Counted from the first letter of the stretch, positions 13,263-41,388 are shown. The stretch: 64,000 nt of DNA from Thermoplasmata archaeon (GCA_034667745.1 JAXDQP010000062.1:958-64957); one strand, 5' to 3'. Translations and numbers: made by a program. The notes: a model not told the origin generated them from the sequence alone.

Positions 13263-13895
13263 GTGCGGGTCCTGGACCTGGGGCGCATGGAATACGGCGA
13301 GTGCCTCCAGCTCCAGCACCGTCTGCGCGACGAGCGGCAGCGCGGCGAGGGCGAGGACACGCTGCTGATGGTGGAGCACCCCCCCGTGGCGACGCTGGGG
13401 CGGCGCGGCAGCCCCGACGAGGTCTTCGACAAGACGCTGCCCGTGTTCACCATCGAGCGCGGCGGCAAGGCCACTTACCACGCGCCGGGGCAACTGGTCC
13501 TCTACCCCATCGTCCACCTCGGCGAGGGGAACCGCGACGTGCGCGCCTGGGTGCAGCACCTGGAGCGCTTCGTCATCGGACTGCTGGCGGCGCACGGCAT
13601 CGCGGCGCGCATCGAGCCCGACCTGCCGGGCGTGTGGACGGGGCCGCGCAAGGTCGCGAGCATCGGCATCGCCATCCAGCACTGGGTCAGCTTCCACGGC
13701 ATCGCCGTCAACGTGACGCTGGAGCCGAAAGAGTTCGAGCGCATCGACCCCTGCGGCCTGGGCGCGCAGGTGATGACGAGCATGGCGCGCGAAGGCAGCC
13801 CAGCGACGCTTCAGGATGTGAAGCAATGGGTCGTGCAGCACGCGCCAGGGCATTTCGGTAAGTTTGTTTCAAATCGCAATCAAATCACGAATTAA
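13263..13895 (+). CDS. lipB: lipoyl(octanoyl) transferase
   Basis: 210 aa; LipB-like core (ATYHAPGQLVLYP, GIAVNV); last ~12 codons lie in an AT-rich patch. Confidence 0.8.
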   Translation: MRVLDLGRMEYGECLQLQHRLRDERQRGEGEDTLLMVEHPPVATLGRRGSPDEVFDKTLPVFTIERGGKATYHAPGQLVLYPIVHLGEGNRDVRAWVQHLERFVIGLLAAHGIAARIEPDLPGVWTGPRKVASIGIAIQHWVSFHGIAVNVTLEPKEFERIDPCGLGAQVMTSMAREGSPATLQDVKQWVVQHAPGHFGKFVSNRNQITN

Positions 13896-14079
13896 CGATT
13901 CTTAGTGATTGATTGCTCAATTGCAGTATTTTACTAAATGAATGTATAGCTCATATAGTATTTAAGATTCAAATTGACGCATGGGAAATGCGCATTGCGA
14001 TAAATTGAAGCTAAATCCAGAACAAGCGAGAACAAATCGCGCAGAAGAAAAATCTAAGGAGTGAACCTGACGGTTTCTT
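13896..14079. promoter_or_regulatory. AT-rich (~30-35% GC by eye) non-coding patch with near-palindrome CAATCAAATCAC..GTGATTGATTG; left boundary of island and upstream region of recombinase gene
   Basis: Strong compositional contrast with the surrounding high-GC DNA; palindrome read directly. Confidence 0.5.
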
Positions 14080-14104
14080 GTGGAGATTCCAGGAGTGCAG
14101 TGCA

Positions 14105-14928
14105 TGGTCCGGGTTGCGCTCTACACCCGCGTCTCGACGGAGGACCAGGCGAAGGAGGGCTTCAGCCTGGACGCCCAGCTCGACCGCCTCCGCTTCTACT
14201 CAAAGGCGCAGGGATGGGACGTCGCGGGCGAGTACGTCGACGAGGGGCACAGCGGCCGCACGACGAAGCGCCCAATGTACCAGAAGATGATGGCCGAGCG
14301 CGCCGCGTGGGATGTCCTCTTGGTCCTCAAGATGGACCGCATCCACCGCAACAGCCGCAACTTCATGGCGATGATGGACGAGCTGCGCAAGGAGCAGAAG
14401 GAGTTCGCCAGCGTCACGGAGAGCCTGGACACCGGCACCGCGATGGGCCGCTTCGTCATGGACATCATCCAGCGCATCGCGCAGCTGGAGTCGGACCAGA
14501 TTGGGGAGCGCACCTACGTCGGGATGGAGCAGAAGGCCAAGACCCGCGCCGGCAACCTGGGCAAGCCCGCGCCGTTCGGCTACCGCTACACGCCGGAGGG
14601 CCCGTTTGCCATCGTTCCAGAGGAAGCTACGTTTGTCAGGATTATGTTCGATTCATACGCGAAAGGCGAAAAAAGAGGCGATATAGCGCAAAAGTTGGTC
14701 GAAATGGGGTCGAGGACCCGGTCCGGAAAGGAGTGGGACCGCTGGGCCGTCGCTGACATTCTGCTCAACCCCACCTATGCCGGCGCCACGCAGTGGGCGG
14801 ACCAGGTGCAGCTCGACACCCACCCCGCCATCATCCCGCCGGAGCAGTTTGACGCCGTGCAGGAACGCACGAAAATGGACAGTCCGAAGGCAAACGTGAC
14901 CTTCCTGACCCGGCTCACGGTCAACTGA
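14105..14928 (+). CDS. serine recombinase (resolvase/invertase catalytic domain plus partial 'recombinase' domain; short, ~274 aa)
   Basis: N-terminus MVRVALYTRVSTEDQ (catalytic Ser in the YxRVST motif), DRIHRN; C-terminal part resembles the recombinase domain of large serine recombinases but lacks zinc ribbon and coiled coil. Confidence 0.85.
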
Positions 14929-14956
14929 AGCGACTCGGCTTGGTTAGACCATTTTG

Positions 14957-14982
14957 GTGCCATACGGGCTCCCGTATGGCAC
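14957..14982. other. perfect 26-bp palindrome GTGCCATACGGG-CT-CCCGTATGGCAC (12-2-12), candidate serine-recombinase crossover site
   Basis: Read directly; 29 bp downstream of recombinase stop; geometry matches hix/gix/res-type sites with a central dinucleotide. Confidence 0.6.
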
Positions 14983-14994
14983 TCGGAGAGAACC
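14969..14994. repeat. direct repeat copy 1 CTCCCGTATGGCACTCGGAGAGAACC (pairs with 20745-20770)
   Basis: 26 bp, 25/26 identical to the second copy, same orientation; overlaps the right half of the palindrome. Confidence 0.8.
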
Positions 14995-15083
14995 AGGGGT
15001 CCTGCCGATTGCCATACGGGGTTCCGTGCCACGTGCGGCACGACGTCCGGTATATTTGACATATTCCGGCGGCCGCGCCGGAG

Positions 15084-15090
15084 ATATTTT
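15084..15090 (+). promoter_or_regulatory. TATA-box-like element (ATATTTT) about 25-30 nt upstream of small ORF 15115
   Basis: AT-rich heptamer in GC-rich context; a second TATATTT at 15051-15057. Confidence 0.3.
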
Positions 15091-15114
15091 CTCCAGCTCG
15101 GCCGTGCAGGGGGC

Positions 15115-15207
15115 ATGGACAAGCCGTTCGGCTGGAAGGCGTGGGTCGCGTTCGGGGCCTGCTCCGTGTTTGGGCTCGGCGCCCTCGCCTGGATCTTAGT
15201 GTCCTAG
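15115..15207 (+). CDS. putative 30-aa hydrophobic peptide MDKPFGWKAWVAFGACSVFGLGALAWILVS
   Basis: ATG..TAG ORF below the ORF-track size cutoff; single predicted TM helix; TATA-like box upstream. Confidence 0.3.
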   Translation: MDKPFGWKAWVAFGACSVFGLGALAWILVS

Positions 15208-15299
15208 GCAGTGGACCGCGACGGTGACGACCCCGAGGACGGCGGTCGACGCGAGGCCGAAGGCCCAGGACGCTAGGCGGGCGACGAGCCTCTGGTTCG

Positions 15300-16255
15300 T
15301 CATTCCCACTTCCTCCAGGGCTGGAGCCAGTCGCGGAAGGTGGCGAGGCCGTAGGGGTCGCGCTTCGTCTTCTCGACCTGCTCGGCGGACCACTCGCGGA
15401 CCGCGCGGTCGGGGGCGTCCCCGGCGCCGGGCGTGGCTGCGTTGACGAGCCAACGGGTGATGCCGGAAACGATGCCCGCAGACCCGGACGCGGCCTCGAC
15501 GCCCGTGACGATGGTGTGCCGGGCCGCGTAGTCGACGCCCCCGATGAACTCGTGCCCGACCGCGCTGCCGGTGTCGGCGCTGCCAGGCCAGATGATGGGC
15601 TCGAACGGGACCTTGACCCAGTCGCCCAGGTCAAGCTGCTTCTTCTCCGTCAGTCCGTCCCATCCTACGCCTGCGCCCCAGCCGGAGCTGGAGGATTTAT
15701 CGCCCTCGAGCGGGAGATATTCTTGCGAGCTGGGTGGGGGCGGGGCGACGTCGGCGTAGTGGGCGCCTGCGGGGTCGCGGCCGAGGTCGGCGGGTGGCGC
15801 GTCGAGGAAGTCCCAGTGTCCGTCCTTGGCGTCGTCGCGCAGGCGGAGGTTCAGGTCGAGGCGCGTCTGCGCTTCGGCTGCGGCCTGCTCGGGGTCGGCG
15901 TAGGTGCCGCGCACGTAGTTGGGGCCGCGGATGAAGTCGAGGATGCCGCGCGACTGCTCCACTTGAGCGTCAATCTGCGGGAGCCACTTGGACGCGTCCT
16001 CGCTGCTGCGAACGGAGTCGGCGAGGCGGCCCGCGTTCGGGGTCCACTTGAGCAAGTCGCTCCACGAGATGCGGGACGGCGCCGGAGCGGGCCCAGGAGC
16101 GGAGGCGGGCGTGGGCTCCGGCGCAGGAGTCTCTGGCGAGGGGGAGCTCCCAGGCGCAGGAGCGGGAGGGTGTTTCTTGCGCCACCAGAGCCACCCGCCC
16201 CAGCCCGCGAGGGCGGCCGCGCCGAGGGCGGCGGCTGCGACGTCGTCGCGCTGGG
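15300..16255 (-). CDS. island protein: N-terminal TM helix, Pro-rich linker, ~250-aa C-terminal domain of unknown function; no methionine anywhere in the 318 aa, start codon unresolved
   Basis: Long in-frame ORF immediately after the stop of the 16256-16750 gene; no ATG/GTG/TTG near its 5' end, first TTG is ~70 codons in; possible non-canonical start or -1 frameshift fusion with the upstream gene. Confidence 0.45.
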
Positions 16256-16750
16256 TCAGGTGAACTTCAACTCCCCGCTGACGGCGACGCCGTTGATGCC
16301 TGCGTCGGTGCTGACGACCTGGATGGTGATGCGGTCGCCGAGGGCGGCGACAGGTTCGTTCACGGTGTCGGCTTGCGCGTCGTTGGCAGCGGCCAGGGCG
16401 GGGTGCGTCACGGTGAGCGCGGACGCCACGCCGTTGATGAAGACCGTGACGACGACGGTCTCGCCTGCGCCCAGGGCGGTGCGCAGGACGCTGCGCAACT
16501 GGCGGATGCTGCCGGCGCGCGGCATGACGTAGCTGGATACGACGCTGACGGCGCCGAAGCCGCCGAGGCTGGCGTCCGTGTAGCCCTGCGGGTGGATGTA
16601 GCAGGTGGCGGCGGCCTGGAGCAGGGCGCCGCACCCGAAGGGCTTGCCGCGCTGCGAGTTGCCGAGCTTCGGCGCAGTGACGGCCTGGTCGTCTATCTCG
16701 GCGGTCTGGATGGTCTGGCCGACGCCAGCGCCGCGCCCGATGGTGGTCAC
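16256..16750 (-). CDS. island protein, 164 aa, beta-rich, unknown function
   Basis: ATG start; overlaps next gene by 4 nt (operon-like). Confidence 0.5.
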   Translation of the reverse strand: MTTIGRGAGVGQTIQTAEIDDQAVTAPKLGNSQRGKPFGCGALLQAAATCYIHPQGYTDASLGGFGAVSVVSSYVMPRAGSIRQLRSVLRTALGAGETVVVTVFINGVASALTVTHPALAAANDAQADTVNEPVAALGDRITIQVVSTDAGINGVAVSGELKFT

Positions 16751-17073
16751 TCGTAGGCCTCCAGTTCCTCAACATAGAGGTTGCCCGAGGCGGCATCCAA
16801 GTTGACCCAGAACTCGCCTTGGATGCTCTTGCCGTCGTGCTCGTAGTCCTTCACGATGCTGCCGCCGACGGCGTCGAGGCGGACGCCGCCAGTCAGGCTG
16901 CCGCCGGGGCGGCGGCGCAGGTGCGCGGCGTTGGCCTCGTTGTTGACCACGACGAGCGCGACCCGCAGGGGGTTGAAGGGGAGAAGGAGGGTGTCGACCG
17001 TGCCGACGGCCACGTTGCCCTCGGTCTTGATGCGCACGTTGCCCTTGGCGATGAGCGCGCGGACGTCGGGCAT
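16747..17073 (-). CDS. island protein, 108 aa, unknown function
   Basis: ATG start, 4-nt overlap with downstream gene. Confidence 0.5.
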   Translation of the reverse strand: MPDVRALIAKGNVRIKTEGNVAVGTVDTLLLPFNPLRVALVVVNNEANAAHLRRRPGGSLTGGVRLDAVGGSIVKDYEHDGKSIQGEFWVNLDAASGNLYVEELEAYE

Positions 17074-17076
17074 GGC

Positions 17077-17880
17077 TTACACCTTGGTGTTGACCGGGCG
17101 GACGTAGAGGTCCACGATTTGGACCTCATTGTCGGCGGCGTCGACCAGGAAGTCCGCCGTCGGCATGACCTGGGTGCTGAAGCGCCCGAGGACGCCCAGC
17201 TGGCCCGGCTCGAACATGGCGTGCGCGACGTCGGTGCGGGTGTCGTAGCACAGCACGCCGGGGCGGTGCGTCTGGCCCGCGAAGGCGAGGCGCATGGCGA
17301 TGCCGCTCGTGCTGATGGGGAACGCGGCCAGGACGTCGTAGACGCCCTCCAGCAGCGACTCGTCGGGGGTCAGCGCGCGGTTGTTCCAGTCGTTCGCGTT
17401 CATCGCGGCGGCGGCCGTGACGGTGCGAATCCAGAACCCGCCCTTGGGGTCCACGGCCTGCACGGGGCCGTCGCAGAACTGGGTCACGATGAACTGGTCC
17501 GTGGCGGCGGCCGGGTTGTTGACGGTCTCGTAGCCGACGAGCTCGCCGGGGCGCAGGCGGATGGGCTCGCGGCGGAAGTCGTTGACGACCGGCGGGGAGC
17601 CCGGCTCGACGGTGCTGGAGAGCTTGGGGACCTCGATGGCGCTGCGCTTGTAGGTGTCGCGCAGGCTGGGGGCGACGATGCGGCAGCGGGGCTGCACGGT
17701 GGCGTCGATGCCCGCGAACACGAACGCGACGCCGGGCAGTTCGCCGGGGACGCGGTAGAAGTCGCCGCTGCTGTCGCGCTGGAACAGCGGGGACAGGGTC
17801 TCCGCGATGGCGGCGAGCGGCTGGAGCGTGGCGGCGCCGTCCTGGTTCTCGAACCAGGCGACCATGTGCTGCCGCGTCAC
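17077..17880 (-). CDS. island protein, 267 aa, beta-rich (candidate structural/capsid-like protein; speculative)
   Basis: GTG start overlapping stop of upstream 50-aa gene (GTGA); no recognisable motif. Confidence 0.5.
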   Translation of the reverse strand: MTRQHMVAWFENQDGAATLQPLAAIAETLSPLFQRDSSGDFYRVPGELPGVAFVFAGIDATVQPRCRIVAPSLRDTYKRSAIEVPKLSSTVEPGSPPVVNDFRREPIRLRPGELVGYETVNNPAAATDQFIVTQFCDGPVQAVDPKGGFWIRTVTAAAAMNANDWNNRALTPDESLLEGVYDVLAAFPISTSGIAMRLAFAGQTHRPGVLCYDTRTDVAHAMFEPGQLGVLGRFSTQVMPTADFLVDAADNEVQIVDLYVRPVNTKV

Positions 17881-18029
17881 GCGAGCACCTCCAGGGCGGC
17901 GACCACTTCAGCGGGCGCGAGGGGCTGGAGGCGGGTCAGGCCGGGGCGCTTGACGGTGCCGTCCGCGTTGTAGACGAAGCCGGTCTCGGGGTCCCAGGCC
18001 TCGCGGTCCTTGTTGAGGATGACGGGCAT
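17877..18029 (-). CDS. small island protein, 50 aa (MPVILNKDREAWDPETGFVYNADGTVKRPGL...)
   Basis: ATG..TGA ORF found by manual translation, tightly packed between neighbours (3-nt gap upstream, GTGA overlap downstream). Confidence 0.45.
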   Translation of the reverse strand: MPVILNKDREAWDPETGFVYNADGTVKRPGLTRLQPLAPAEVVAALEVLA

Positions 18030-18032
18030 GGT

Positions 18033-18329
18033 TCACCAGATTTTGCGGCCGAACACCTTCGGCGAGCGGATTTTCAGGGCGCTGGCGATGCGCTTCTGGA
18101 GGCCGCGCCCCATCACGGGGATGGCCATCTGGGCGATGTTCCGGGCGGACACGGCCTCCTTGAGGGCGGGCTTGGCGGCGTTCATGGCGCCCTGCATGTC
18201 GCCGTTCATCGCCGCCTGGACGGCAGGGGTGAACGGCTCGACGGCCTGGACGACGATGTTCGTGGCGACGGCGAGGTCGCTCCAGGACTGCTTCGGCTTG
18301 CGGGGCTTGCTGTTCTTGGGCTTGGTCAT
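18033..18329 (-). CDS. small basic island protein, 98 aa (Lys/Arg-rich N-terminus, possible nucleic-acid binding)
   Basis: MTKPKNSKPRKPKQSW..; ATG start. Confidence 0.5.
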   Translation of the reverse strand: MTKPKNSKPRKPKQSWSDLAVATNIVVQAVEPFTPAVQAAMNGDMQGAMNAAKPALKEAVSARNIAQMAIPVMGRGLQKRIASALKIRSPKVFGRKIW

Positions 18330-18351
18330 GTCAGTGGTCTCCTTGGGTGTC

Positions 18352-18457
18352 TTACTTGCCCCACGTGGGGCGGGGGGCGAGGCGGCGCTTGCACTTGTTG
18401 TAGGCGCTCTTCTTGCGGTGCAGCCCGTGGCAGTACGGGCACTTCTTCAGTTGGGCC
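18352..18457 (-). CDS. 35-aa zinc-ribbon peptide MAQLKKCPYCHGLHRKKSAYNKCKRRLAPRPTWGK
   Basis: CPxC...C spacing typical of a zinc ribbon; ORF below track cutoff, found manually. Confidence 0.4.
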
Positions 18458-18460
18458 ATG

Positions 18461-18913
18461 TCAGGCGGGTCTCCAGGTGTTTTCCTTCGTTGCGTCGTTC
18501 ATGTGGGGGACAGTGCGGAGGAACGGTTCGAGGATGGGCTTCCAGCGGGCGCCGGACTCGTAGACGCCTTGCATGGTGTCCGGGCCGAGGAAGGCCTCGA
18601 TGCGCGCCACGTTGTCCGGGCCGAAGCGCTGCGCGATGAGCGTCTTGACCTCGACCTTCGTGGCGAGGGCGGTCAGGCGCTTCTCTTCGGCCTTCTGCCA
18701 GCGCAGGGCGGCGGCGTCCGTGGGGTCCACGCCGCCGCGCATGACGCCGGGCTTCAGCAGCGCATCCAGCCGAGCGCCTAGACGCGTCTCGGCGGCTGCA
18801 ATGTCGCGGTTGACGCGGGGGATGGTGTGCAACGTGGCGATGCAGGTGTCGGTGACGCACTGGGCGAACAGGCCGATGATGAAGGCGCCGATGGTCAGCA
18901 AAACCTGGTCCAT
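18461..18913 (-). CDS. island protein, 150 aa, N-terminal hydrophobic segment (membrane-associated)
   Basis: MDQVLLTIGAFIIGLFAQCV.. hydrophobic N-terminus. Confidence 0.45.
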   Translation of the reverse strand: MDQVLLTIGAFIIGLFAQCVTDTCIATLHTIPRVNRDIAAAETRLGARLDALLKPGVMRGGVDPTDAAALRWQKAEEKRLTALATKVEVKTLIAQRFGPDNVARIEAFLGPDTMQGVYESGARWKPILEPFLRTVPHMNDATKENTWRPA

Positions 18914-19339
18914 GTTTCACAGCAAGGATTGAACAGCATTTAGCTAGCGAGGTTTTCGGCTAAACGAGCGAATACATGTGGCGAGCTTGCGCTAAACAGC
19001 GTCCCAAATGCGTTCCGTGCGTTGACCTTAAGGGGAAACGCCAGCGTTGGGGGGTTTGGGGGGCGTAGGATGGAGCACAGGATTACCTGGGCGCACAGGC
19101 GCACAAGGCGACCGGACAAGGCGGCATCCTCAGCGGCCGGACAAGGGGGAGGTATGGAGGGGGAGCACCCCTTACGGCACGGTGCTCGCTTCGCTCGCGC
19201 CCCGTCATCTTGGGCGCGCTGCTGCGCGCACCCCCGACCGAGAGGAATCCCCCGGACCCCAGCCCGGAATCGACGGCAAGGCCCCTAGGCGCGCGTCCCT
19301 TGGCTCAGAAAAGGGAAGAAGGGGGAAGAGGCGACCGGG

Positions 19340-19549
19340 CTAGGATTCGAGCCAGCGCGCGCCCTGCGGAAGGGGCTCGTTGGCGGGCCACCACCCGGCG
19401 CGGCCGTCCACGCCCGCGGCGTAGCGCACGTGGGTGTGGCTGCCGTCAGGCCAGCTGACGCGCATGGTGCGCGCCCGAGGCGTAGGGCGGGCCGGTCGGA
19501 AGTCTCGGCGGGCGAGTTGGCAGCGGCAGCTAGTCGTCTTCTTGGCCAT
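19340..19549 (-). CDS. possible small Cys-containing protein, 69 aa
   Basis: ATG ORF MAKKTTSCRCQLARRD..; weak support. Confidence 0.25.
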   Translation of the reverse strand: MAKKTTSCRCQLARRDFRPARPTPRARTMRVSWPDGSHTHVRYAAGVDGRAGWWPANEPLPQGARWLES

Positions 19550-19775
19550 CGGGGGCCTCCACTCCAGACCTAGCCGAGCTGGCGGATTTATTCCGTGCCG
19601 ACGTCGCCTTGCCCAGCTGGAGCTCCGCGAGGCGGCCCAGGCGCGAGCTCACCGAGTGATAGCTCCAGGGGCGGTCCTTGAACGCGGGGTGCTTGTAGGC
19701 GTCGAGCTTGCGGATGCGCTCGGCCAGGCTGACCGGGATGCTGATGGTGGTGCGAGGCTCCTTGCTCACCGTCAC
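19530..19775 (-). CDS. ribbon-helix-helix (CopG/Arc-like) DNA-binding protein, ~80 aa
   Basis: GTG start overlapping upstream stop (GTGA); beta-strand TTISIPVSL followed by helices LAERIRKL..; the longer 117-aa ORF is probably an over-extension. Confidence 0.45.
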   Translation of the reverse strand: MTVSKEPRTTISIPVSLAERIRKLDAYKHPAFKDRPWSYHSVSSRLGRLAELQLGKATSARNKSASSARSGVEAPDGQEDD

Positions 19776-19903
19776 ACCACCGTGGGCGCGCGGGGACAGG
19801 TGGCGTGGTAGCAGGCGCTGCACACCACGGGCTTGCTGTCGGGGTCGAGCCAGCCCGGGTGTCCGCCCCGGCAGCCAGGGCACGAGTCGCAGAAGCCGCT
19901 CAC
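19772..19903 (-). CDS. small zinc-finger protein (~43 aa: VSGFCDSCPGC...CSACYHATCP)
   Basis: Two CxxC pairs; GTG start overlapping upstream stop (GTGA). Confidence 0.4.
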   Translation of the reverse strand: MSGFCDSCPGCRGGHPGWLDPDSKPVVCSACYHATCPRAPTVV

Positions 19904-20079
19904 GCGATAGCCCCCCGGCCGATGGCGTCGAGGATGCCGGGCTTGTCGAGGAGCTTCTCGACGCGGTCGAGGAGCCGGACGCAACTGGTGAGGGTTCCTC
20001 GACACTCGACCTCGACCTGTCCGATGCGGACGGAGATGCTGTTCCCGTAGTCCGGGCGGAGCCGGGCGGCGCGGCCCAT
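19900..20079 (-). CDS. small island protein, 59 aa
   Basis: ATG at 20079 immediately after upstream stop (TGACGATG); manual translation MGRAARLRPDYGNSISVRIGQVEVECRG.. Confidence 0.4.
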   Translation of the reverse strand: MGRAARLRPDYGNSISVRIGQVEVECRGTLTSCVRLLDRVEKLLDKPGILDAIGRGAIA

Positions 20080-20081
20080 CG

Positions 20082-20249
20082 TCAGGCCCCCGGCTTGCGC
20101 CAGCTGTTGCCGCCGTGCTGGCGGCAGTCGTTGTAGCTCAGGAGCTCGTAGGTCTCCGAGTTGCGCGACCAGGTGCAGCCGCAGGGCGCGGTGACCTGCT
20201 CCTCCTTGGCGGCCTTGGGGTGGAACGCCTTGCGCAGCAGGCCCTTCAC
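20082..20249 (-). CDS. small Cys-containing island protein, 55 aa
   Basis: GTG start overlapping stop of 20246 gene (GTGA); VKGLLRKAFHPKAAKEEQVTAPCGCTW.. Confidence 0.35.
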   Translation of the reverse strand: MKGLLRKAFHPKAAKEEQVTAPCGCTWSRNSETYELLSYNDCRQHGGNSWRKPGA

Positions 20250-20719
20250 TGCGACGCCCCCGGCACAGGGAGGTCCGAGTCCGAGTCCGTCAGGGGTCGT
20301 GCGACGCTCACGACTGTGAGGTGGAACGTCTTCTTCAGGCCCCGGCCTTCGCTGTGGATATCCAGGACGACGTTGCCGCTCCAGTCGGGGCCGCTGCGCA
20401 CGATGACGTCACGCAGGGAGACGGCCGCCGGGAGGCTCAGGATTTCCCAGACGCTCTCACGGGCGGTGCCTACTTCCAGGAAGGTCGCCACCGCGTACTT
20501 GGTGACGGCCTTCGAGCTCACGATGTTCCCGTTGTCGTCGTGGTTGGCGATGGTGTGCGGGATGCCCTGGGGGCCGTAGCCCTTCACGTCCACCAGGACG
20601 ACGCGCTGGGGCGTGCTCTCCGGCTGGAAGAACGTGGGCTTCGCCTTGTCGGGGAGGTTCAGGCCCGCGAGCCACGCGCCACGGTCAAGGGTCTTCTGTT
20701 CAGGGGTCGTCTCTTGCAT
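20246..20719 (-). CDS. island protein, ~157 aa (ATG at 20719; alternative GTG at 20758 lies inside the direct repeat)
   Basis: MQETTPEQKTLDRGAWLAGLNLP..; unknown function. Confidence 0.5.
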   Translation of the reverse strand: MQETTPEQKTLDRGAWLAGLNLPDKAKPTFFQPESTPQRVVLVDVKGYGPQGIPHTIANHDDNGNIVSSKAVTKYAVATFLEVGTARESVWEILSLPAAVSLRDVIVRSGPDWSGNVVLDIHSEGRGLKKTFHLTVVSVARPLTDSDSDLPVPGASQ

Positions 20720-20744
20720 ACGGTTCGCTCCAAATTGGCTCGAA

Positions 20745-20770
20745 CTCCCGTATGGCACTCGAAGAGAACC
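20745..20770. repeat. direct repeat copy 2 CTCCCGTATGGCACTCGAAGAGAACC
   Basis: 25/26 identity with 14969-14994, same orientation; the sequence to its left does not match the left palindrome half. Confidence 0.8.
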
Positions 20771-20792
20771 GCATTTTTCCCGTAGATTTTGC

Positions 20793-21176
20793 TCATTTTT
20801 GTGCAGAACTGGCCAAAATCATCAGGATGTCCGCTTCCAACTGGCTCAGCAGCCGGGTGAGGAACAGGTAGACCAAGGTGAGGAGGCCGGTGAGCGCGCC
20901 GGCCACGCGAACGGCGGCGGTGACGACCGGGGTTGCCTGTGAGAGTCCGGGGACGAAGTTGGCCGCCAGGCCGACGACGGTGCCGGCGAAGCCCAGGTAG
21001 AGCAGCACGAGGGCGCCGGTGCGGACGCGGTCCCAGCGGCGCAGGCTTGCGGCGCGCTCGTGCAGGAGGCTGTCGCGGCCGCGGCTGCCCAGCTCGAGGG
21101 CCTGCAGGATGTGCCCATAGCGGCTGTGCAATAGCCACTGGAGGCGGGACTCGTAGGGGTACACGCGGCCGGCAAG
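20793..21176 (-). CDS. small membrane protein (two predicted TM helices); start uncertain (TTG/GTG)
   Basis: C-terminal part GALVLLYLGFAGTVVGLAANFV..VVTAAVRVAGALTGLLTLVYLFL hydrophobic; no internal ATG. Confidence 0.4.
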   Translation of the reverse strand, partial: LAGRVYPYESRLQWLLHSRYGHILQALELGSRGRDSLLHERAASLRRWDRVRTGALVLLYLGFAGTVVGLAANFVPGLSQATPVVTAAVRVAGALTGLLTLVYLFLTRLLSQLEADILMILASSAQK

Positions 21177-21399
21177 GGGGGCGCGGAGATGGGGTTGCCG
21201 CTCCGTTGCGTCGGGAGCAAAAGGGGGAGAAGGGGGAAGATTGGGGTGGTCACGCCAGGCGTTCGGTGTATTCCCATTCGCTGGTGACCACACGGATCCA
21301 GACGTAGCTGTCCATGCGATGCCTCCCATTTCCTTGGGGCGCCGACGGCCTCCCAGCCGTGCGACAGAGTCGCGGGGCGTCCCGAGGGAAACCGGACTA

Positions 21400-21596
21400 T
21401 GCGTTGCGTGATTTAAGGCGTTCCAAGCGAAGCGACGGTGCCGATGCAACACCACCCAGAAATGTTCCCGTGCAGTTATAAGATTTATAAATAAATGGGA
21501 GCAACTTTGCATCAAAGCATTTGATTCGCGCAAAAGCGCAACGACACGACTGATTCTCAATCAGCGAAATTCAATCTGAATCCGCAAATCTGTTCA
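21400..21596. promoter_or_regulatory. AT-rich patch with TTTATTTATAAATC TATA-like box on the minus strand; right boundary of island
   Basis: Composition contrast; TATA-like sequence read directly. Confidence 0.45.
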
Positions 21597-21863
21597 TCAG
21601 TCGAGCAGCGTGAACAGGACGTCATCCTGCCCCACGTCGAACACGCCCAGCCGCGCGCCCGCGTCGAGCCAGCCGTGCGCGTAGTTGACCTGCGCGAACG
21701 CGTTCACGAAGTCGCCCTGGGCGTGGAAGTGCTGCGCGTCGGCGTAGTAGCGCTTGGCCATGTCGAGGAAGTTGTCGGCGATCTTGGCCGCGAAGGACTT
21801 CGGCGGCGCCACGACCTTGACCTTCTCGAAGGCGCGCCGCGTGGTGTCGAGGTACTTCCCCAT
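21597..21863 (-). CDS. small conserved archaeal protein, 88 aa (DUF357-like guess)
   Basis: MGKYLDTTRRAFEKVKVV..YYADAQHFHAQGDFVNAFAQVNYAHGWLDAGARLG; 29-nt gap after the HerA-like gene, same strand. Confidence 0.5.
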   Translation of the reverse strand: MGKYLDTTRRAFEKVKVVAPPKSFAAKIADNFLDMAKRYYADAQHFHAQGDFVNAFAQVNYAHGWLDAGARLGVFDVGQDDVLFTLLD

Positions 21864-21892
21864 CTTCTCCGCGGAAATCTCCCTCTGCGGGG

Positions 21893-23992
21893 TCAACGCC
21901 ACAGCCGGCGCAAGGTGGAGCGGGTCTTTTGCCGTTCCTGCTGCAGCAGGCGGTGGTAGGTGCAGCCCGCCTGCTCGGGGCAGCGGATGCAGGCCGGTCC
22001 CTCCGGCAGGCAGGCGTTCTCCGCGATCTCCAGCAGCAGCCGCAGGCGGGCGTCGGGGTCGCGGTGGTGTGACGCCTCGAGGTCGCCGACGATGGCGACG
22101 GTGCGCGCGGGGTCCTGGTCTGGCCCCACGAGGCCGATGCGGGAGGCGACGCGGTGGATGTCCTTGGCGTCCCCGGCGGTCCAGCTCTTGCGGACCTTGT
22201 GGGCGAGGAACGCGTCGTCCGGGATGAGGCGGCGCGGGGAGCGGGGCAGCGTCTGGAACTCGACCTCGGGCGCCTGGACCGGGAGGACCGGCTTGGGGCG
22301 CGCGGGCGGCGCGATGGCCGGGGCAGCGGGCGAGGCAGCGGGAGCCGGTGGGACGGGCGCAGGCGGGGGTTGGAACGCGCTGGGCGGCGTCCACACCGGC
22401 GCCACGGGCTTCGGCGGGTCAACACTCGGGGCCGGGTTCAGGGGCGCGCGGGGCGCAGGGGGCGGCAGAACGGGCGCCTGGGGCGCTTCGCCATCGTCCT
22501 CCTCTTCGTCCTCGTCCGACTCCTGGTGCAGCACGGACACGGAGCGGCCGCCGTGGCGCGTCAGGCGGGGGCGCACCGACACGAAGACCGGCTGCGTGAG
22601 GCCGCCACCCGCCACGAGGGCCTCCCCCACGGCGAGGCGCTGGATTTCATCGGCGACCTCCGCCGAGATGCCCTCGACGCTCTGGACGATGGCCTTGAGG
22701 TCATTCGGGTTCGTGACCTTCAGCACGACCTGGGTGTTGCACTGCGACAGCACGTTCTTGTCGATCTTCGCCGGGCGCTGGCTCACGATGACGAGGCCCA
22801 TGCCGAATTTGCGGCCCTCCGAGGCCACGGTGCGGATGATGGCTCCGCTCACGGCGTTGCCCACGTTCCTTTCCGGGCAGAAGTTGTGCGCCTCCTCCAC
22901 CACGAGGATGTGCGCGGGAATCTCGCCGCGCTTGCGCGCCTCCCAGAGCATGTTCGCGATTCGCGTGACGACGATCTCCTGGATGTCGGGGTTGACACCC
23001 TTGAGGTTCACGATGGTGCACTGGCCCGGCGCGACCAGCTCCTTGACGGGGGTGCCGCGGATGTCGAAGACCTTCGTGGACTCCAGGACCTCGAGGGCGT
23101 TGAGGACGTTCCACTTGGCGTTCGATTTGTTGCGCGCGACGCCGTCCATGATGTCGCGCAGCGTGTAGGCGGGGAGATGCTCCTTGATCTCCTTGATGGC
23201 CTGGTAGAGCACGCCCACCTGGCCGCCGGAGAGCTTGCCGCCCAGCAGGTCCACGATGTCGCGGCCCTCCAGGTTCATGCCCTCCAGCACCAGGCGCTGC
23301 GCTTCGGGGTTGAGCTGGACGTCGAGGGCGTACTCCTTGACCTGCTTGGCGAACGACTTGGGCTTCACCTTGTAGCGCGCCATCGCCTCCAGCTCGCCCT
23401 CGTCGAGGTTGGGGCTCCGCAGGGAGCCGTACTCGCCGTGCGGGTCGAGGATGACCAGCGGCACGTTGGCCTTGATGAGCTCCTCCAGGATGACCGCGAC
23501 GGTGTAGGATTTGCCGGCGCCGGTCTTCGCCAGCACCGAGAGGTGCTTCTGCGCCACCGTGTCCATGGAGAGCGCGACGGGAATCTTGCTGCCCTTGACG
23601 AAGCCGAGGTAGGCGCCGCCCTCCGCCGACTGCTCCAGCCCCAGCACGGTCGTGACGAGGCGGTCGTCGGCGTTGTAGACCGGCACCCCGGCGCGGAACG
23701 GCGTGCGCGGCGTCTGGATGCGGCCCTGCTGGTCCTGGTAGCCGATGACGCGCACGCCGGCCGAGAGCTGGTCCTCGGCATCGGCGGCCAGCCCCTCGGG
23801 AATCGCGACGGCCTGCTCGTAGCTCAGGCTGCTGCGCCGCAGGACGGCGTCGACCTGCGCCAGGACGCGGTGGCCCTCGGACTCCACCTCGACGTAGTCC
23901 AGGCGCTTGAGCCCGGAGTCCCCCACGGCGATGTCGAACGCGGTGCTCGACACGTTGCCGTAGATGATGCCGACCTGGCGGCGCAGGGCCAT
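21893..23992 (-). CDS. HerA-like (DUF87/FtsK-HerA superfamily) ATPase with N-terminal HAS-barrel-like region, Pro-rich linker and C-terminal Cys-cluster domain
   Basis: Walker A LAKTGAGKS, Walker B HILVVEEAH; acidic patch DEDEEEDDGE then ~80 aa Pro-rich; C-terminus ..ACLPEGPACIRCPEQAGC.. Confidence 0.8.
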   Translation of the reverse strand: MALRRQVGIIYGNVSSTAFDIAVGDSGLKRLDYVEVESEGHRVLAQVDAVLRRSSLSYEQAVAIPEGLAADAEDQLSAGVRVIGYQDQQGRIQTPRTPFRAGVPVYNADDRLVTTVLGLEQSAEGGAYLGFVKGSKIPVALSMDTVAQKHLSVLAKTGAGKSYTVAVILEELIKANVPLVILDPHGEYGSLRSPNLDEGELEAMARYKVKPKSFAKQVKEYALDVQLNPEAQRLVLEGMNLEGRDIVDLLGGKLSGGQVGVLYQAIKEIKEHLPAYTLRDIMDGVARNKSNAKWNVLNALEVLESTKVFDIRGTPVKELVAPGQCTIVNLKGVNPDIQEIVVTRIANMLWEARKRGEIPAHILVVEEAHNFCPERNVGNAVSGAIIRTVASEGRKFGMGLVIVSQRPAKIDKNVLSQCNTQVVLKVTNPNDLKAIVQSVEGISAEVADEIQRLAVGEALVAGGGLTQPVFVSVRPRLTRHGGRSVSVLHQESDEDEEEDDGEAPQAPVLPPPAPRAPLNPAPSVDPPKPVAPVWTPPSAFQPPPAPVPPAPAASPAAPAIAPPARPKPVLPVQAPEVEFQTLPRSPRRLIPDDAFLAHKVRKSWTAGDAKDIHRVASRIGLVGPDQDPARTVAIVGDLEASHHRDPDARLRLLLEIAENACLPEGPACIRCPEQAGCTYHRLLQQERQKTRSTLRRLWR

Positions 23993-35627: not shown

Positions 35628-35700
35628 TAGCCCCGACCGGATTCGAACCGATGCCAAAAGCTCCAGAGGCTCCTATCCTTGACCACTAGACTACGGGGCT
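35628..35700 (-). tRNA. tRNA-Gln (anticodon CTG)
   Basis: Manual cloverleaf: A1-U72 acceptor AGCCCCG/CGGGGCT, anticodon loop CTCTGGA, T-loop TTCGAAT; 73 nt, CCA not encoded. Confidence 0.75.
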
Positions 35701-35907
35701 TTGTATCTCGTTTCGGTGCTGACCCACCGGCTTTGGGATAGGAACACGTGGAGCTTGGAGGACCAAGTCCAGTGGTCAACTTCGGCCACACAAGACCCCC
35801 ATATAAGGAAAATGGACCTGTGAACGACGCCCGCGCCGTCCACCGCCCCCTTGCCCAGATGCGGCATGGCCATCGCTAGGCAGGAGATGTCATCCAGGTG
35901 CGACAAC

Positions 35908-36300
35908 TTAGGGCGCTGTGCCGACTTGGCGCAAGACAATCTCCTCGGTTTGGCCCACCAGTAGGCAGACGGACCATCCGCAGGAAATGATGGCGCAGAT
36001 GCCATTGAACGTCCATGTGCCGCTGCCGACGCTGAAGTTCGGCACCCAGACATGCGCGCCGATGCCAAACCGGCTCGACTCGGGCCGAACCGGGACCAGG
36101 GGAAGAGGCTCGCTGCCCTCCGTCTTCAGGACACAAGGTCCGCTCACCACGCAGATGTCCACACCATAGCTTTGGCATTCCACGGCGACCGTGATATGGT
36201 CGATGATGTCCGACGGGTTGGGCAGGGGAGGCGTTTCCGCGGAGACGGAGGGGAGGAAGACAATGAGTCCGACCAAGGCCATGCAGGCAGAGCCACGCAT
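35908..36300 (-). CDS. small secreted protein, 130 aa, with signal peptide
   Basis: MRGSACMALVGLIVFLPSVSA signal; Cys-containing. Confidence 0.45.
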   Translation of the reverse strand: MRGSACMALVGLIVFLPSVSAETPPLPNPSDIIDHITVAVECQSYGVDICVVSGPCVLKTEGSEPLPLVPVRPESSRFGIGAHVWVPNFSVGSGTWTFNGICAIISCGWSVCLLVGQTEEIVLRQVGTAP

Positions 36301-36350
36301 GGTTCTGCATCAAATGCACTCAGACCTTAAGCTTACGCTGGCGGATTTTG

Positions 36351-37226
36351 TCAAGTCCTAAGGGAAAACTCTCTGACTTCCCTTCCCTGAACAATCCCCG
36401 TCTGGACCGCCATCGTCCCGCCGCTGGATGACTGCATCACCGCACCTCCATGTGCGGCAAGGGTGCCCGCGTTCCCAACGTAGCTCAACAGGACGGTGTC
36501 GGTGACGTTGGCCCAGACGGAGTGGCCCGCGTTGACCTGATGCAAACGGCCGGGTTCCGTGAACGCGCCCGGCTGGGACGCCGTTGCTTCGCCGCCTCCG
36601 ATGTAGTCGTACACATCCATGCCCCCGCGGAAAACGTGGTATTGGACAGCTGGAGGGGAAGATTGGTCGTCAATCTGGCCCATCAGCGCGCTGAAACCCA
36701 ACTGGGCAAACGCGTCGGCAACGGTCTGGCTGTTGACAATCAGTTCAAGGACGTAGAAGTCGGGTCGGGTGGTGGGGTCTGGCGACGCGACGCTGCTGGG
36801 GACCAGCGCAGGAACCCAGAACTCGGAAATCTGGAAGTTCTTCACGACGGTTTGATTGTCGAGCACGATGGAATCGCAGGAGAACAGGTTAAGGTTGCCT
36901 TGCACGAAGCTGCTGCCCGCCACAGGGTTGGGCGAGTAGCCTTCGGGGAGCAGTGCCTTCACCTTCGATGCCTCTGCCGTGACGTGCGTGGCGTAGCCGA
37001 AGCAATCGTTCATCTCGAATCGGTGCGGAACCGGGGGCGGGAGCGAACAGGTGGGCACGCCGGCCTCCGGACATTTCGGCGGCGTTGTGGTGGGGGACGT
37101 CGTCGGCGTGGGGCCGCTGGACATGGTCTGCGTCGGGTCCGGCTTGGCGTGGTTCGTGCAGCCGGCAAGCAGTACGACAGTGGCCAGCAGCAGGGAAGTG
37201 ATATGGCGGGGAGGAGGGCTGATCAC
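36351..37226 (-). CDS. lipoprotein with Thr/Pro-rich linker
   Basis: Signal plus lipobox LLAGC, then PTPTTSPTTTPP linker. Confidence 0.55.
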   Translation of the reverse strand: MISPPPRHITSLLLATVVLLAGCTNHAKPDPTQTMSSGPTPTTSPTTTPPKCPEAGVPTCSLPPPVPHRFEMNDCFGYATHVTAEASKVKALLPEGYSPNPVAGSSFVQGNLNLFSCDSIVLDNQTVVKNFQISEFWVPALVPSSVASPDPTTRPDFYVLELIVNSQTVADAFAQLGFSALMGQIDDQSSPPAVQYHVFRGGMDVYDYIGGGEATASQPGAFTEPGRLHQVNAGHSVWANVTDTVLLSYVGNAGTLAAHGGAVMQSSSGGTMAVQTGIVQGREVREFSLRT

Positions 37227-38950: not shown

Positions 38951-38965
38951 GTTCCGGGGCTTCCA

Positions 38966-38978
38966 CCCGTCAGTCCGT
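38966..38978 (-). promoter_or_regulatory. TATA-box-like element (AAATATA on minus strand) about 19-25 nt upstream of the 38950 start; suggests a leaderless transcript
   Basis: Read directly from sequence. Confidence 0.35.
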
Positions 38979-39111
38979 ATATTTGTCTTGGCGTGACGGG
39001 ACTCCGATGGCGACAGCATGTGGCAAAAACCACCAGGCTGTGGTATTATGCCACTGACCCTTGGCTTGGCTTTGGATGTCTGGCCTCGCGACCGACACGG
39101 AGACCCAAACC

Positions 39112-40251: not shown

Positions 40252-40388
40252 GCCGAGAGGGGTTCAACTCTTTTCCTTCTTTTCCGAAAATCTGGAGTTC
40301 CATGCTGCACCGTGAAGCCATTGTCCGCACGCCAAAGCCTCTGCCGCAGCGAAGCAAGCTTTATCTTCCTGCTTCGGAAACGCGGTTC

Positions 40389-41258: not shown

Positions 41259-41314
41259 CCGGAAGTTGTTGGTGGCCACAATCGGTTCTTGGAGGTCGTG
41301 TGTGGCCGCTTCGA

Positions 41315-41388
41315 TGGGCCTGGCCGGAATCGAACCGGCGACCTGCGCTTTGTAAGAGCGCCGTCATGAACCCCTAGACCACAGGCCC
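41315..41388 (-). tRNA. tRNA-Val (anticodon TAC)
   Basis: Manual cloverleaf: acceptor GGGCCTG/CAGGCCC, anticodon stem GCGCT/AGCGC with loop CTTACAA, T-arm GCCGG-TTCGATT-CCGGC; 74 nt. Confidence 0.85.

What the first reader, a model, noticed from the sequence alone, without database searches (positions are those of the whole stretch)
13850..21600. ~7.7 kb foreign island bounded by AT-rich patches and fused to the 3' end of lipB
Two sharply AT-rich segments (13896-14079 and 21400-21596) bracket a region whose genes are all unannotatable. It contains a serine recombinase, a run of tiny overlapping genes with zinc-ribbon and RHH motifs, and a non-coding iteron-like region. The last ~12 codons of lipB (..FVSNRNQITN) are encoded by the AT-rich DNA, the signature of an element that inserted into the gene's 3' end and supplied a new C-terminus. 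The overall look is an integrated plasmid or provirus of an unrecognised type: no capsid, terminase, Rep or packaging-ATPase motif was recognised inside it.
Basis: partly seen in the sequence, partly recalled or inferred. Interest (0 to 1): 0.8.

Follow-up and report, generated by a model that had tools for sequence, protein, structure and literature searches.

The report
Small archaeal provirus at recombinase landing pad
The "7.7 kb island" is really a 5.8 kb circular virus-like element with no integrase of its own, inserted into a palindromic site just downstream of a serine recombinase gene that related archaea carry in their chromosomes even when the element is absent.

Summary
The AT-rich patches, the serine recombinase and the block of unannotatable genes are all present, but the island boundaries are wrong. 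The mobile DNA is 5,776 bp, between crossover centres at 14969/70 and 20745/46. It sits in a 12-2-12 palindrome, GTGCCATACGGG-NN-CCCGTATGGCAC, that starts 28 nt after the recombinase stop codon.

Related Thermoplasmatota genomes keep lipB, the AT-rich patch, the recombinase, the palindrome, g1, a 21-aa microORF, the second AT-rich patch and DUF357-HerA, with nothing inserted. I found at least eight such empty frames. One related genome (L001) carries a diverged relative of the element at the same site in the opposite orientation. The central dinucleotides of its junctions predict that orientation.

Free relatives occur as circles of 6,021 bp and 6,245 bp and as a 5.8 kb contig not shown to be circular. 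The element encodes a 267-aa all-beta protein (AlphaFold pLDDT 95). Its best structural match is the capsid protein of an archaeal virus, with weaker matches to double-jelly-roll capsids. Its family has at least 1,402 clusters in metagenomes.

The element has no recognisable recombinase, replication protein or packaging ATPase. The best reading is an undescribed small archaeal provirus that uses a chromosomal recombinase, a truncated form of the large-serine-recombinase type.

The parts
13263..13895 (+). lipB (context, host gene). Its C-terminal tail runs into the AT-rich patch in every related genome, occupied or empty.
   Evidence: Pfam LplA-B_cat E=2e-37, residues 11-193 of 210; alignment of the lipB end in 7 genomes.
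13896..14103 (.). Left AT-rich patch: the conserved upstream region of the recombinase gene, part of the host module.
   Evidence: Minimum GC 0.26-0.28. It is present with shared motifs in the empty frames L081, L083, L084 and L085.
14104..14928 (+). Chromosomal serine recombinase, 274 aa. It has a catalytic domain (RVSTEDQ) and a 'Recombinase' domain, and no zinc-ribbon or coiled-coil domain.
   Evidence: Pfam PF00239 and PF07508. It covers positions 86-356 of the 651-position phrog_95 profile. Best PDB match is the TP901-1 integrase catalytic domain, E=9e-29. There are 3,368 homologues; the top 120 are 270-345 aa (most 272-300) and at least 63% identical. It sits in the same frame in the empty genomes.
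14957..14982 (.). attL: GTGCCATACGGG-CT-CCCGTATGGCAC, with the crossover centre CT at 14969-14970.
   Evidence: It is the only 12-2-12 palindrome with at most 1 mismatch in the 64 kb. Comparison with empty attB sites.
15009..15034 (.). An extra site inside the element: TTGCCATACGGG-GT-TCCGTGCCACGT, one consensus half-site inverted relative to the attL arm. Possibly an accessory or operator site.
   Evidence: Motif search, inverted repeat I15, coordinates.
15115..15207 (+). Possible 30-aa membrane peptide ORF (MDKPFGWKAWVAFGACSVFGLGALAWILVS) after a TATA-like stretch. Uncertain.
   Evidence: Read from the sequence; the GC3 phase agrees.
15196..15303 (-). g16, a 35-aa hydrophobic peptide and the last gene of the structural operon.
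   Evidence: Translation. L001 has a 31-aa gene in the same place.
15300..16259 (-). g15, 319 aa: N-terminal membrane anchor, proline-rich linker and a conserved C-terminal domain. Candidate spike or membrane protein. Its start codon is CTG where L001 has GTG.
   Evidence: Translations and junction comparison; weak similarity to L003 and L001.
16256..16750 (-). g14, 164 aa, a variable protein next to the capsid-like genes.
   Evidence: GC3 0.91; no family match apart from a weak tail-fibre hit, E=0.004.
16747..17073 (-). g13, 108 aa, a conserved small protein predicted all-beta, directly after the capsid-like gene. Candidate minor capsid or vertex protein.
   Evidence: Homologues in L001, L003, L004, L005, L092 and L094. 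The single-sequence model was unusable, pLDDT 39.6.
17077..17880 (-). g12, 267 aa, a candidate major capsid protein built from two jelly-roll-like beta domains.
17877..18029 (-). g11, 50 aa, conserved in L001 and L003.
   Evidence: tblastn, 63-64% identity.
18033..18329 (-). g10, 98 aa, with a basic N-terminus and helical hydrophobic body. Conserved in all the circles.
   Evidence: tblastn hits in L001, L003, L004 and L005.
18352..18459 (-). g9, a 35-aa basic peptide with a single CxxC pair (CPYC). It is 97% identical in L001.
   Evidence: Translation; tblastn.
18461..18913 (-). g8, 150 aa, with an N-terminal membrane helix. First gene of the conserved module.
   Evidence: Homologues in L001, L003, L004 and L005.
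18914..19339 (.). Conserved non-coding region between the two operons: candidate origin and/or promoters. It contains GAAGGGGGAAGA at 19318-19329.
   Evidence: No coding periodicity. About 71% nucleotide identity to L001. Conserved blocks shared with L001 and L005. Only weak repeats.
19340..20249 (-). g7 to g3, five small overlapping ORFs of 43-81 aa. g5 has CxxC pairs and g6 has an RHH-like N-terminus. This is the variable 'early' region.
   Evidence: GC3 phases; translations; Pfam only a weak zf hit, E=0.002; no similarity in other elements.
20246..20719 (-). g2, 157 aa, first gene after attR. Conserved in L001 (52%) and in the 6,021-bp circle L005 (40%). Function unknown.
   Evidence: tblastn; no family match; only itself found in the word-indexed search.
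20733..20758 (.). attR: AATTGGCTCGAA-CT-CCCGTATGGCAC, with the centre CT at 20745-20746.
   Evidence: Direct repeat D11 with attL, 26 nt, one mismatch, spacing 5,776; coordinates.
20793..21164 (-). g1, a 123-aa membrane protein of the host module, convergent with the recombinase gene.
   Evidence: Present in all empty frames at 33-73% identity.
21250..21315 (-). Conserved 21-aa microORF (MDSYVWIRVVTSEWEYTERLA) of the host module, preceded by GGAGG.
   Evidence: Alignment of 7 genomes; 73-100% identity.
21377..21596 (.). Right AT-rich patch: the upstream region of the microORF-g1 unit, part of the host module.
   Evidence: Partly conserved in empty frames.
21597..21896 (-). DUF357 gene (host context).
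   Evidence: Pfam E=8e-28. It lies next to HerA in about 30 other archaeal genomes.

Best explanation
The locus has two layers. The outer layer is a conserved chromosomal module of one Thermoplasmatota lineage. In order, it holds an AT-rich upstream region, a 274-aa serine recombinase gene, a 26-bp palindromic site starting 28 nt after its stop codon (12-bp arms around a 2-bp non-palindromic centre), a convergent small membrane-protein gene (g1), a 21-aa microORF and a second AT-rich region. The inner layer is a 5,776-bp circular element that recombined with that palindrome (attB) through its own attP. The attP has one arm like the attB arm and one unrelated arm, and exchange took place at the central dinucleotide. 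Because the two attB arms are symmetric, only the central dinucleotide sets the direction of insertion. The element carries no recombinase of its own. The most likely catalyst is therefore the chromosomal recombinase encoded next to the site; this step is inferred. The element is most likely a small temperate virus. It has a conserved module with a two-jelly-roll capsid-like protein, a small beta protein, a membrane-anchored proline-rich protein and small basic or membrane proteins. It also has a variable set of tiny regulators and a conserved non-coding region that probably holds its origin and promoters. How it replicates is unknown; it presumably uses host enzymes.
Confidence: 0.72

Rival explanations
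1. One reading: one 7.7-kb element (13850-21600) that carries its own serine integrase, inserted into the 3' end of lipB and giving lipB a new C-terminus.
For: The AT-rich patches are the most extreme of the few sub-50% GC stretches in 64 kb, all of which lie in this locus, and they bracket the region. The lipB tail lies in AT-rich DNA. In L084 and L095 one of the module's neighbours differs, so the module may once have moved.
Against: At least eight independent genomes keep the patches, recombinase, g1 and lipB tail with nothing in between. The hybrid att sites lie at 14957-82 and 20733-58, not at the patches. The recombinase diverges in step with host genes.
Confidence: 0.04
2. The outer module is not a host gene set. 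It is the decayed remnant of an older integrated element whose integrase still works in trans, and the 5.8-kb element is a relative that reuses the remnant's site, as a helper and hitch-hiker pair.
For: The flanks are AT-rich and compositionally odd. The module's neighbours vary: DUF4442 instead of lipB in L084, DUF7839/PKD instead of DUF357-HerA in L095. The GAAGGGGGAAGA motif is shared between the module and the element's non-coding region, 2 copies where 0.02 are expected. Some free circles carry serine recombinases (L003, L004).
Against: The module sits at the same place in lineages down to 65% recombinase identity, and its divergence is host-like. The recombinases on the circles are a different type (PF00239 only) and give no tblastn match to this one. 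The three 5-6 kb contigs examined that carry this recombinase were all chromosomal fragments.
Confidence: 0.2
3. The 5.8-kb element is an integrative plasmid or vesicle-borne element, not a virus. On this view g12 is a surface or adhesion protein.
For: No packaging ATPase, portal or replication gene was found. The g12 fold also matches TNF/C1q-like and PNGase-like cellular proteins. Whole-chain superposition on capsid proteins is poor. The similar marine Charybdis elements remain of uncertain nature (bioRxiv 10.1101/2025.08.03.668216).
Confidence: 0.25
4. The segment is a host invertible DNA switch flipped by the neighbouring recombinase, which would explain the opposite orientation in L001.
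For: Opposite orientation between identical frames; palindromic sites at both ends.
Against: The central dinucleotides at the two ends are in direct, not inverted, orientation, so recombination would excise rather than invert. The inner segments are 38-70% identical in protein where the flanks are 83-96%. Empty sites and free circles exist.
Confidence: 0.03
5. Assembly chimera: a free circle was joined to the chromosome through a shared short repeat.
For: The window comes from a metagenome assembly, and the repeat is 26 nt.
Against: The two copies differ at one base. A different variant is integrated at the same site in two other samples. The junctions have the exact hybrid structure expected from site-specific exchange.
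Confidence: 0.02

Closest known systems
IMEX elements (integrative mobile elements exploiting Xer, such as CTX-phi, which uses host XerCD at dif), and single-recombinase modules where the site lies next to the gene (XerS/difSL, XerH/difH). From general knowledge.
   Same: A small circular element without its own recombinase inserts into a short, nearly palindromic chromosomal site that belongs to a conserved host recombinase. That recombinase gene lies right beside its site.
   Different: The recombinase here is a serine recombinase, not a tyrosine one. The host is an archaeon. No cellular role for the recombinase-site pair, such as dimer resolution, has been shown. Use of the host enzyme is inferred, not demonstrated.
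Large serine recombinase (phage integrase) systems: phiC31, Bxb1, TP901-1.
   Same: The catalytic domain is closest to TP901-1 integrase, and a 'Recombinase' domain is present. Short attB and attP sites differ from each other, attL and attR are hybrids, and a 2-bp non-palindromic centre sets the orientation.
   Different: The protein stops after the Recombinase domain at 274 aa and lacks the zinc-ribbon/coiled-coil domain that controls direction in known integrases. The gene is chromosomal and stays behind at empty sites. The arms are 12 bp, shorter than the half-sites of known large serine integrases (general knowledge).
Charybdis elements (Kirchberger and Luque, bioRxiv 10.1101/2025.08.03.668216).
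   Different: Charybdis elements are about 4.6 kb and exclusively marine. The integrated ones carry their own integrase, and several lie next to tRNA genes. Here the elements are 5.8-6.2 kb and about 69% GC, and the five short contigs that matched the module's conserved microORF are labelled, from my memory of JGI project names, as soil metagenomes. The element has no integrase, and the target lies beside a host recombinase gene. Sequence homology between g12 and Charybdis Gp3 could not be tested because no Gp3 sequence was available.
Small membrane-containing icosahedral viruses with jelly-roll capsid proteins: Portogloboviridae SPV1, sphaerolipoviruses such as HHIV-2, Corticoviridae PM2, Tectiviridae PRD1.
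   Different: The genome is about half the size of PM2's, which is roughly 10 kb (general knowledge). There is no packaging ATPase. No whole-chain superposition was obtained, and there is no sequence similarity to any described family.

Membership tests
Serine recombinase superfamily | Resolvase-type catalytic domain with the nucleophilic serine in a Y-x-R-V-S-T-x-x-Q motif | tested here: met
   PF00239 E=4e-36, residues 12-154. ALYTRVSTEDQ can be read in the translation. TP901-1 catalytic domain E=9e-29.
Large serine recombinases (phage-type integrases) | 'Recombinase' DNA-binding domain (PF07508) after the long helix | tested here: met
   PF07508 E=3e-18, residues 180-264.
Large serine recombinases (phage-type integrases) | C-terminal zinc-ribbon domain with an embedded coiled coil; total length of about 400-700 aa | tested here: not met
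   The protein ends at residue 274 and covers only positions 86-356 of the 651-position phrog_95 profile. The top 120 homologues are 270-345 aa, most 272-300. The tail contains no cysteines.
Large serine recombinases (phage-type integrases) | attP x attB exchange at a 2-bp centre that yields hybrid attL and attR | tested here: met
   Hybrid junctions with identical centres, CT/CT in the window and TT/TT in L001. Empty attB sites were found, and L095 matches the attB predicted for L001. That this protein is the catalyst was not tested.
Small resolvases/invertases (Tn3, gamma-delta, Hin/Gin) | About 180-200 aa with a C-terminal helix-turn-helix; res sites with accessory subsites, or inverted sites plus an enhancer | tested here: not met
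   There is no HTH_7 hit and the C-terminal half is PF07508. The sites at the two ends are in direct orientation, and empty frames hold a single palindrome.
IMEX-like elements (exploiting a host recombinase) | The element encodes no recombinase | tested here: met
   Pfam was searched for g2-g16, and PHROGs or PADLOC for the larger element ORFs; none matched a recombinase. A novel recombinase among the orphan ORFs cannot be excluded.
IMEX-like elements (exploiting a host recombinase) | The target is the cognate site of a conserved, vertically inherited chromosomal recombinase | tested here: inconclusive
   The site starts 28 nt from the recombinase stop codon, is conserved with paired arm changes in empty genomes, and the recombinase follows host divergence. 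Binding and catalysis were not tested, and the enzyme is not a Xer-type tyrosine recombinase.
Double-jelly-roll capsid viruses (Varidnaviria, Bamfordvirae) | Major capsid protein with two vertical jelly rolls that superposes on PRD1 P3, PM2 P2 or STIV B345 | tested here: inconclusive
Double-jelly-roll capsid viruses (Varidnaviria, Bamfordvirae) | FtsK/HerA-type packaging ATPase and a single-jelly-roll penton protein | tested here: not met
   No ATPase domain in any element ORF. g13 is a penton candidate by position only, because its model failed.
Charybdis elements | Circular genome of about 4.6 kb, marine, with a Gp3 double beta-sandwich hallmark protein | not testable with these tools
   Size (5.8-6.2 kb) and habitat differ. 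The Gp3 sequence or model was not available for comparison.
Pleolipoviridae and Rep-Arvir replicons | Rolling-circle Rep (HUH or DUF7845) and a spike/VP4-like gene set | tested here: not met
   No Rep or DUF7845 match. Rep-Arvir proteins are about 470 aa, and no ORF of that size exists here.

The most novel reading that the evidence does not exclude
The recombinase-palindrome pair may be a housekeeping site-specific recombination system of this Thermoplasmatota lineage. It could, for example, resolve chromosome dimers with a serine recombinase, in the way XerS/difSL does with a tyrosine one. On this reading the 5.8-kb elements are the first archaeal, serine-recombinase counterpart of IMEX phages, and also the smallest integrating viruses with a double-jelly-roll-like capsid gene.
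Probability: 0.15. Interest if true: 0.9.

Novelty: new variant of a known kind. Interest (0 to 1): 0.74.

Why it matters
Standard pipelines find almost no proviruses in Thermoplasmatota: a 2026 census reports 30 provirus regions for Thermoplasmatota (5,041 genomes) and Nanobdellota (2,275 genomes) combined (PMC13573593). An element like this one, with no hallmark gene and host-like composition, is invisible to them. Three points follow.

- **A large hidden family.** The capsid-like gene belongs to at least 1,402 clusters at 50% identity. The members examined sit on contigs of 2-10 kb; complete circles of 6.0, 6.2 and 8.8 kb are shown, and an 8.4-kb contig carries a protein-primed polymerase. 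This points to a large, undescribed group of very small archaeal viruses or virus-like elements.
- **A fixed place to look.** The conserved frame of recombinase, palindrome and g1 gives a defined locus where such elements can be found by synteny alone.
- **A minimal recombination system.** The frame offers a natural minimal serine-recombinase system: 274 aa, no zinc-ribbon domain, and a 26-bp symmetric site whose 2-bp centre sets the orientation. This is directly testable in vitro and may be useful as a compact integration tool. It also raises the question of why a host lineage keeps a recombinase and its target site when the site is usually empty.

Tried and rejected
**Searches that found nothing**
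- IMG/VR scan with g12: no relatives.
- Exact search for the att core in JGI metagenome contigs: nothing, not even the source contig.
- Search for the microORF core: five short contigs of 1-1.8 kb, none with a recognisable att half-site.
- g2 homologue search: returned only g2 itself.
- tblastn of g12 against GenBank phages: only chance hits.
- Rfam over the locus and over the whole window: only the three tRNAs.
- PADLOC on module and element proteins: only generic HerA matches.

**Structure predictions that failed or could not run**
- The single-sequence g13 model was unusable, pLDDT 39.6.
- The afdb50 fold library was not available.

**Ideas considered and dropped**
- Inversion switch: rejected on site orientation and inner-segment divergence.
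- Replication terminus or dif-like position: GC skew and gene orientation simply alternate gene by gene across the window, so there is no support.
- Candidate attP half-site in the 6,021-bp circle: at chance level and in the wrong intergenic region.
- 'Iterons' in 18914-19339: only one weak 25-nt pair.
- Rep-Arvir rolling-circle protein: no ORF of the right size or family.

Full report
**1. The observation**

The window is about 70% GC. All stretches below 50% GC (120-nt windows) lie in this locus. The two most extreme are 13790-14127 (minimum 0.28) and 21377-21638 (minimum 0.38).

Between them lie a serine recombinase gene on the plus strand and a run of minus-strand ORFs with strong third-position GC periodicity. 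The recombinase has Pfam Resolvase and Recombinase domains. None of the other ORFs matches Pfam, PHROGs or PADLOC. lipB ends inside the left AT-rich patch.

So the raw observation holds. Two details do not. The 'iteron-like' region has only one weak 25-nt tandem pair. The region as a whole is not compositionally foreign: the tetranucleotide distance of the inner 5.8 kb to the rest of the window has z=-0.21, and GC is 69.2% against 70.1%.

**2. Where the mobile DNA really begins and ends**

A repeat search found a 26-nt direct repeat with one mismatch at 14969-14994 and 20745-20770, spaced 5,776 bp apart. It also found a local inverted repeat at the left copy.

The 267-aa protein g12 (17077-17880) has 32 close homologues, and eleven of them lie on contigs of 5.2-6.3 kb. 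One of these contigs closes on itself into a 6,245-bp circle. Three independent assemblies give one and the same 6,021-bp circle, which has no recombinase gene.

A related chromosome (L001, with flanks 83-85% identical in DNA) has the same frame: lipB, recombinase, g1, DUF357 and HerA. Its inner segment is inverted and only about 71% identical where it aligns at all.

Other relatives have the frame with nothing inside it:
- L010
- L081, L082 and L083
- the more distant L084 and L085
- L091, which stands for 24 contigs with the same neighbours
- L095-98

All of these keep the AT-rich patch upstream of the recombinase, and those with lipB upstream also keep a variable lipB tail of similar length. 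They also keep g1, a strongly conserved 21-aa microORF and the second AT-rich region. The AT-rich patches and the recombinase therefore belong to a conserved chromosomal module. Only the inner 5,776 bp is an insert.

**3. The attachment sites**

In empty frames the recombinase and g1 stop codons are 100-440 nt apart, with a 12-2-12 palindrome between them. The sites are:
- L083: GTGCCATACGGG-AG-CCCGTATGGCAC, a perfect palindrome
- L095: GTGCCATTCGGG-TT-CCCGTATGGCAC
- L091: ATACCATTCGGG-CT-CCCGAATGGGAT
- L085: GGGCAATCCGGG-AG-CCCGGATTGCCT
- L010: GTCCTGTCCGGT-AG-ACCGAACAGGAC
- L084: GTGAGGTTCGGG-TT-CCCGTCCATCAC, with three arm mismatches
- L081 and L082: a degenerate left arm

The arms change between lineages but stay complementary, which is the signature of a site bound by a protein dimer.

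In the window, attL (14957-14982) is GTGCCATACGGG-CT-CCCGTATGGCAC and attR (20733-20758) is AATTGGCTCGAA-CT-CCCGTATGGCAC. In L001, attL is GTGCCATTCAGG-TT-CCCCAACGACCG and attR is GTGCCATTCGGG-TT-CCCGTATGGCAC.

Each genome has the same centre at both junctions. The repeated block lies to the right of the centre in the window and to its left in L001. The only stretch common to both blocks is the centre plus CCC, so that is where exchange took place.

Each element's attP has one arm that copies the attB arm and one unrelated arm, and the unrelated arm always lies next to g2. Read in the element's own orientation, the attP centre is AG in the window and TT in L001. The corresponding attB centres, read from the recombinase towards g1, are CT and TT. 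Matching the centres forces the window's element to be transcribed towards the recombinase and L001's element away from it. That is what is observed.

L095 is an empty site with the attB predicted for L001. The attL palindrome is the only 12-2-12 palindrome with at most one mismatch in the whole window. A short symmetric site, hybrid junctions and a 2-bp non-palindromic centre that sets polarity are what established knowledge of serine recombinases predicts.

**4. The recombinase**

The true start is probably the ATG at 14104, which gives 274 aa, the commonest length among the closest homologues. The catalytic domain is closest to that of TP901-1 integrase, and the second half is the Recombinase domain of large serine recombinases.

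The protein covers only positions 86-356 of the 651-position integrase profile and lacks the zinc-ribbon/coiled-coil part. This is not a truncation. There are 3,368 homologues; the top 120 are 270-345 aa (most 272-300) and at least 63% identical, and the named ones are nearly all labelled Thermoplasmatota.

Its identity to the window copy falls in step with neighbouring host proteins: 92% in L001, 83-84% in L081 and L083, 67% in L010 and 65% in L091. The three 5-6 kb contigs I examined that carry it were all chromosomal fragments with the empty frame. The recombinases on the free circles L003 and L004 are of another type and give no match to it.

I therefore treat the recombinase as a chromosomal gene, and infer that it acts on the palindrome that starts 28 nt downstream of its stop codon. 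The 12-bp arms fit a protein that has the Recombinase domain but no zinc-ribbon domain.

**5. The element**

The genes run on the minus strand in this order:
- g2 (157 aa, conserved in L001 and in the 6,021-bp circle)
- five tiny variable ORFs, g3 to g7
- a conserved 426-nt non-coding region
- the conserved block g8, g9, g10, g11, g12 and g13
- the variable g14
- g15, with a membrane anchor, a proline-rich linker and a conserved C-terminal domain
- g16

A profile search finds 1,402 clusters at 50% identity. The distant members I sampled sit on contigs of 1.8-9.8 kb, six of them 6.5-9.8 kb. One is an 8,802-bp circle, and another lies beside a protein-primed family-B polymerase.

A conserved structural block joined to interchangeable replication or integration genes is typical of viruses. 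No packaging ATPase, replication protein or vertex protein was identified, and the g13 model failed. I rate 'virus' as likely but not shown.

**6. Comparison with known systems**

The closest working analogy is the IMEX strategy, in which small circles without a recombinase use a host recombinase and its site. Here the enzyme is a serine recombinase and the host is an archaeon.

The chemistry and site logic are those of large serine integrases, but membership fails on the missing zinc-ribbon domain and on where the gene resides.

The closest described elements are the marine Charybdis elements of Poseidoniales: about 4.6 kb, a two-domain beta hallmark protein and no replication gene. Homology could not be tested, and the integrated Charybdis elements carry their own integrase. 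Rep-Arvir and pleolipovirus replicons do not fit.

**7. Verdict**

The corrected picture is a small provirus of an undescribed family, inserted at a conserved recombinase-and-site 'landing pad', with empty sites, an inverted sibling and free circles as evidence. That is more interesting than the original claim.

The main gaps are direct evidence for excision, proof that the chromosomal recombinase is the catalyst, and the particle nature of the element.

Noticed in passing
window 21250-21315 (-): A 21-aa microORF (MDSYVWIRVVTSEWEYTERLA) preceded by GGAGG. It is 73-100% identical across eight genomes whose recombinases are only 65-92% identical. A conserved GC-rich leader lies upstream of it, and g1 lies downstream. 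Its function is unknown and Rfam has no match.
   Followed up: partly
window 19318-19329 and 21229-21240: The 12-mer GAAGGGGGAAGA occurs exactly twice in 64 kb, where 0.02 copies are expected. One copy is just 3' of element gene g7 and the other is just 3' of the host microORF. On the transcribed strand both read TCTTCCCCCTTCT.CCC.TTTT. The motif is conserved in other host frames and in elements L001 and L005. It could be a terminator-like tract or a shared regulatory site linking the element and the host module.
   Followed up: partly
window ~35700-41300: A second compositionally deviant block. GC is 61-65% against 70%, and it has the largest tetranucleotide distance in the window. It lies between tRNA-Gln (35628-35700) and tRNA-Val (41315-41388). 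Its ORFs are mostly unannotatable, apart from one 636-aa protein with an HTH_20 domain. It may be another integrated element.
   Followed up: partly
window 16257-16259 (-): g15 has no ATG, GTG or TTG at the position where the L001 homologue starts with a GTG overlapping the upstream stop codon (GTGA). The window has CTGA there. This is either a CTG start by translational coupling or a weakened gene.
   Followed up: partly
window 18352-18459 (-) and L001 9406-9513: The 35-aa basic peptide g9, which has a single CxxC pair (CPYC), is 97% identical between the window's element and L001's. The neighbouring genes are 40-70% identical.
   Followed up: no
window 15009-15034: A further consensus half-site (TTGCCATACGGG) lies 26 nt inside the element from attL and is inverted relative to the attL arm. 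The attP side therefore carries a long interrupted palindrome. It may be an accessory recombinase-binding site or an operator.
   Followed up: partly
L092 (NCBI SDBT01029508.1, 8,414 nt) and L094 (8,832 nt, circular): Distant relatives of the capsid-like protein (23-34% identity) sit in larger small genomes. One has a protein-primed family-B DNA polymerase and a 766-aa protein. The other is an 8.8-kb circle with a 950-aa protein. This shows exchange of modules within the wider family.
   Followed up: partly
L003 4805-5299 and 3725-4468; L004 4802-5572: Two free contigs of the family (L003, a closed circle, and L004, circularity not shown) carry their own small serine recombinases (Resolvase domain only, 247-256 aa), convergent with the structural operon. 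L003 also has a Dam-like methyltransferase. These recombinases are unrelated to the chromosomal one at tblastn level.
   Followed up: no
L084 and L095: The unit of recombinase, palindrome, g1 and microORF keeps its internal order but has different neighbours. L084 has DUF4442 instead of lipB. L095 has an extra 142-aa gene before the recombinase, and DUF7839 and a PKD protein instead of DUF357-HerA. The unit may have moved, or the region may have been rearranged.
   Followed up: no
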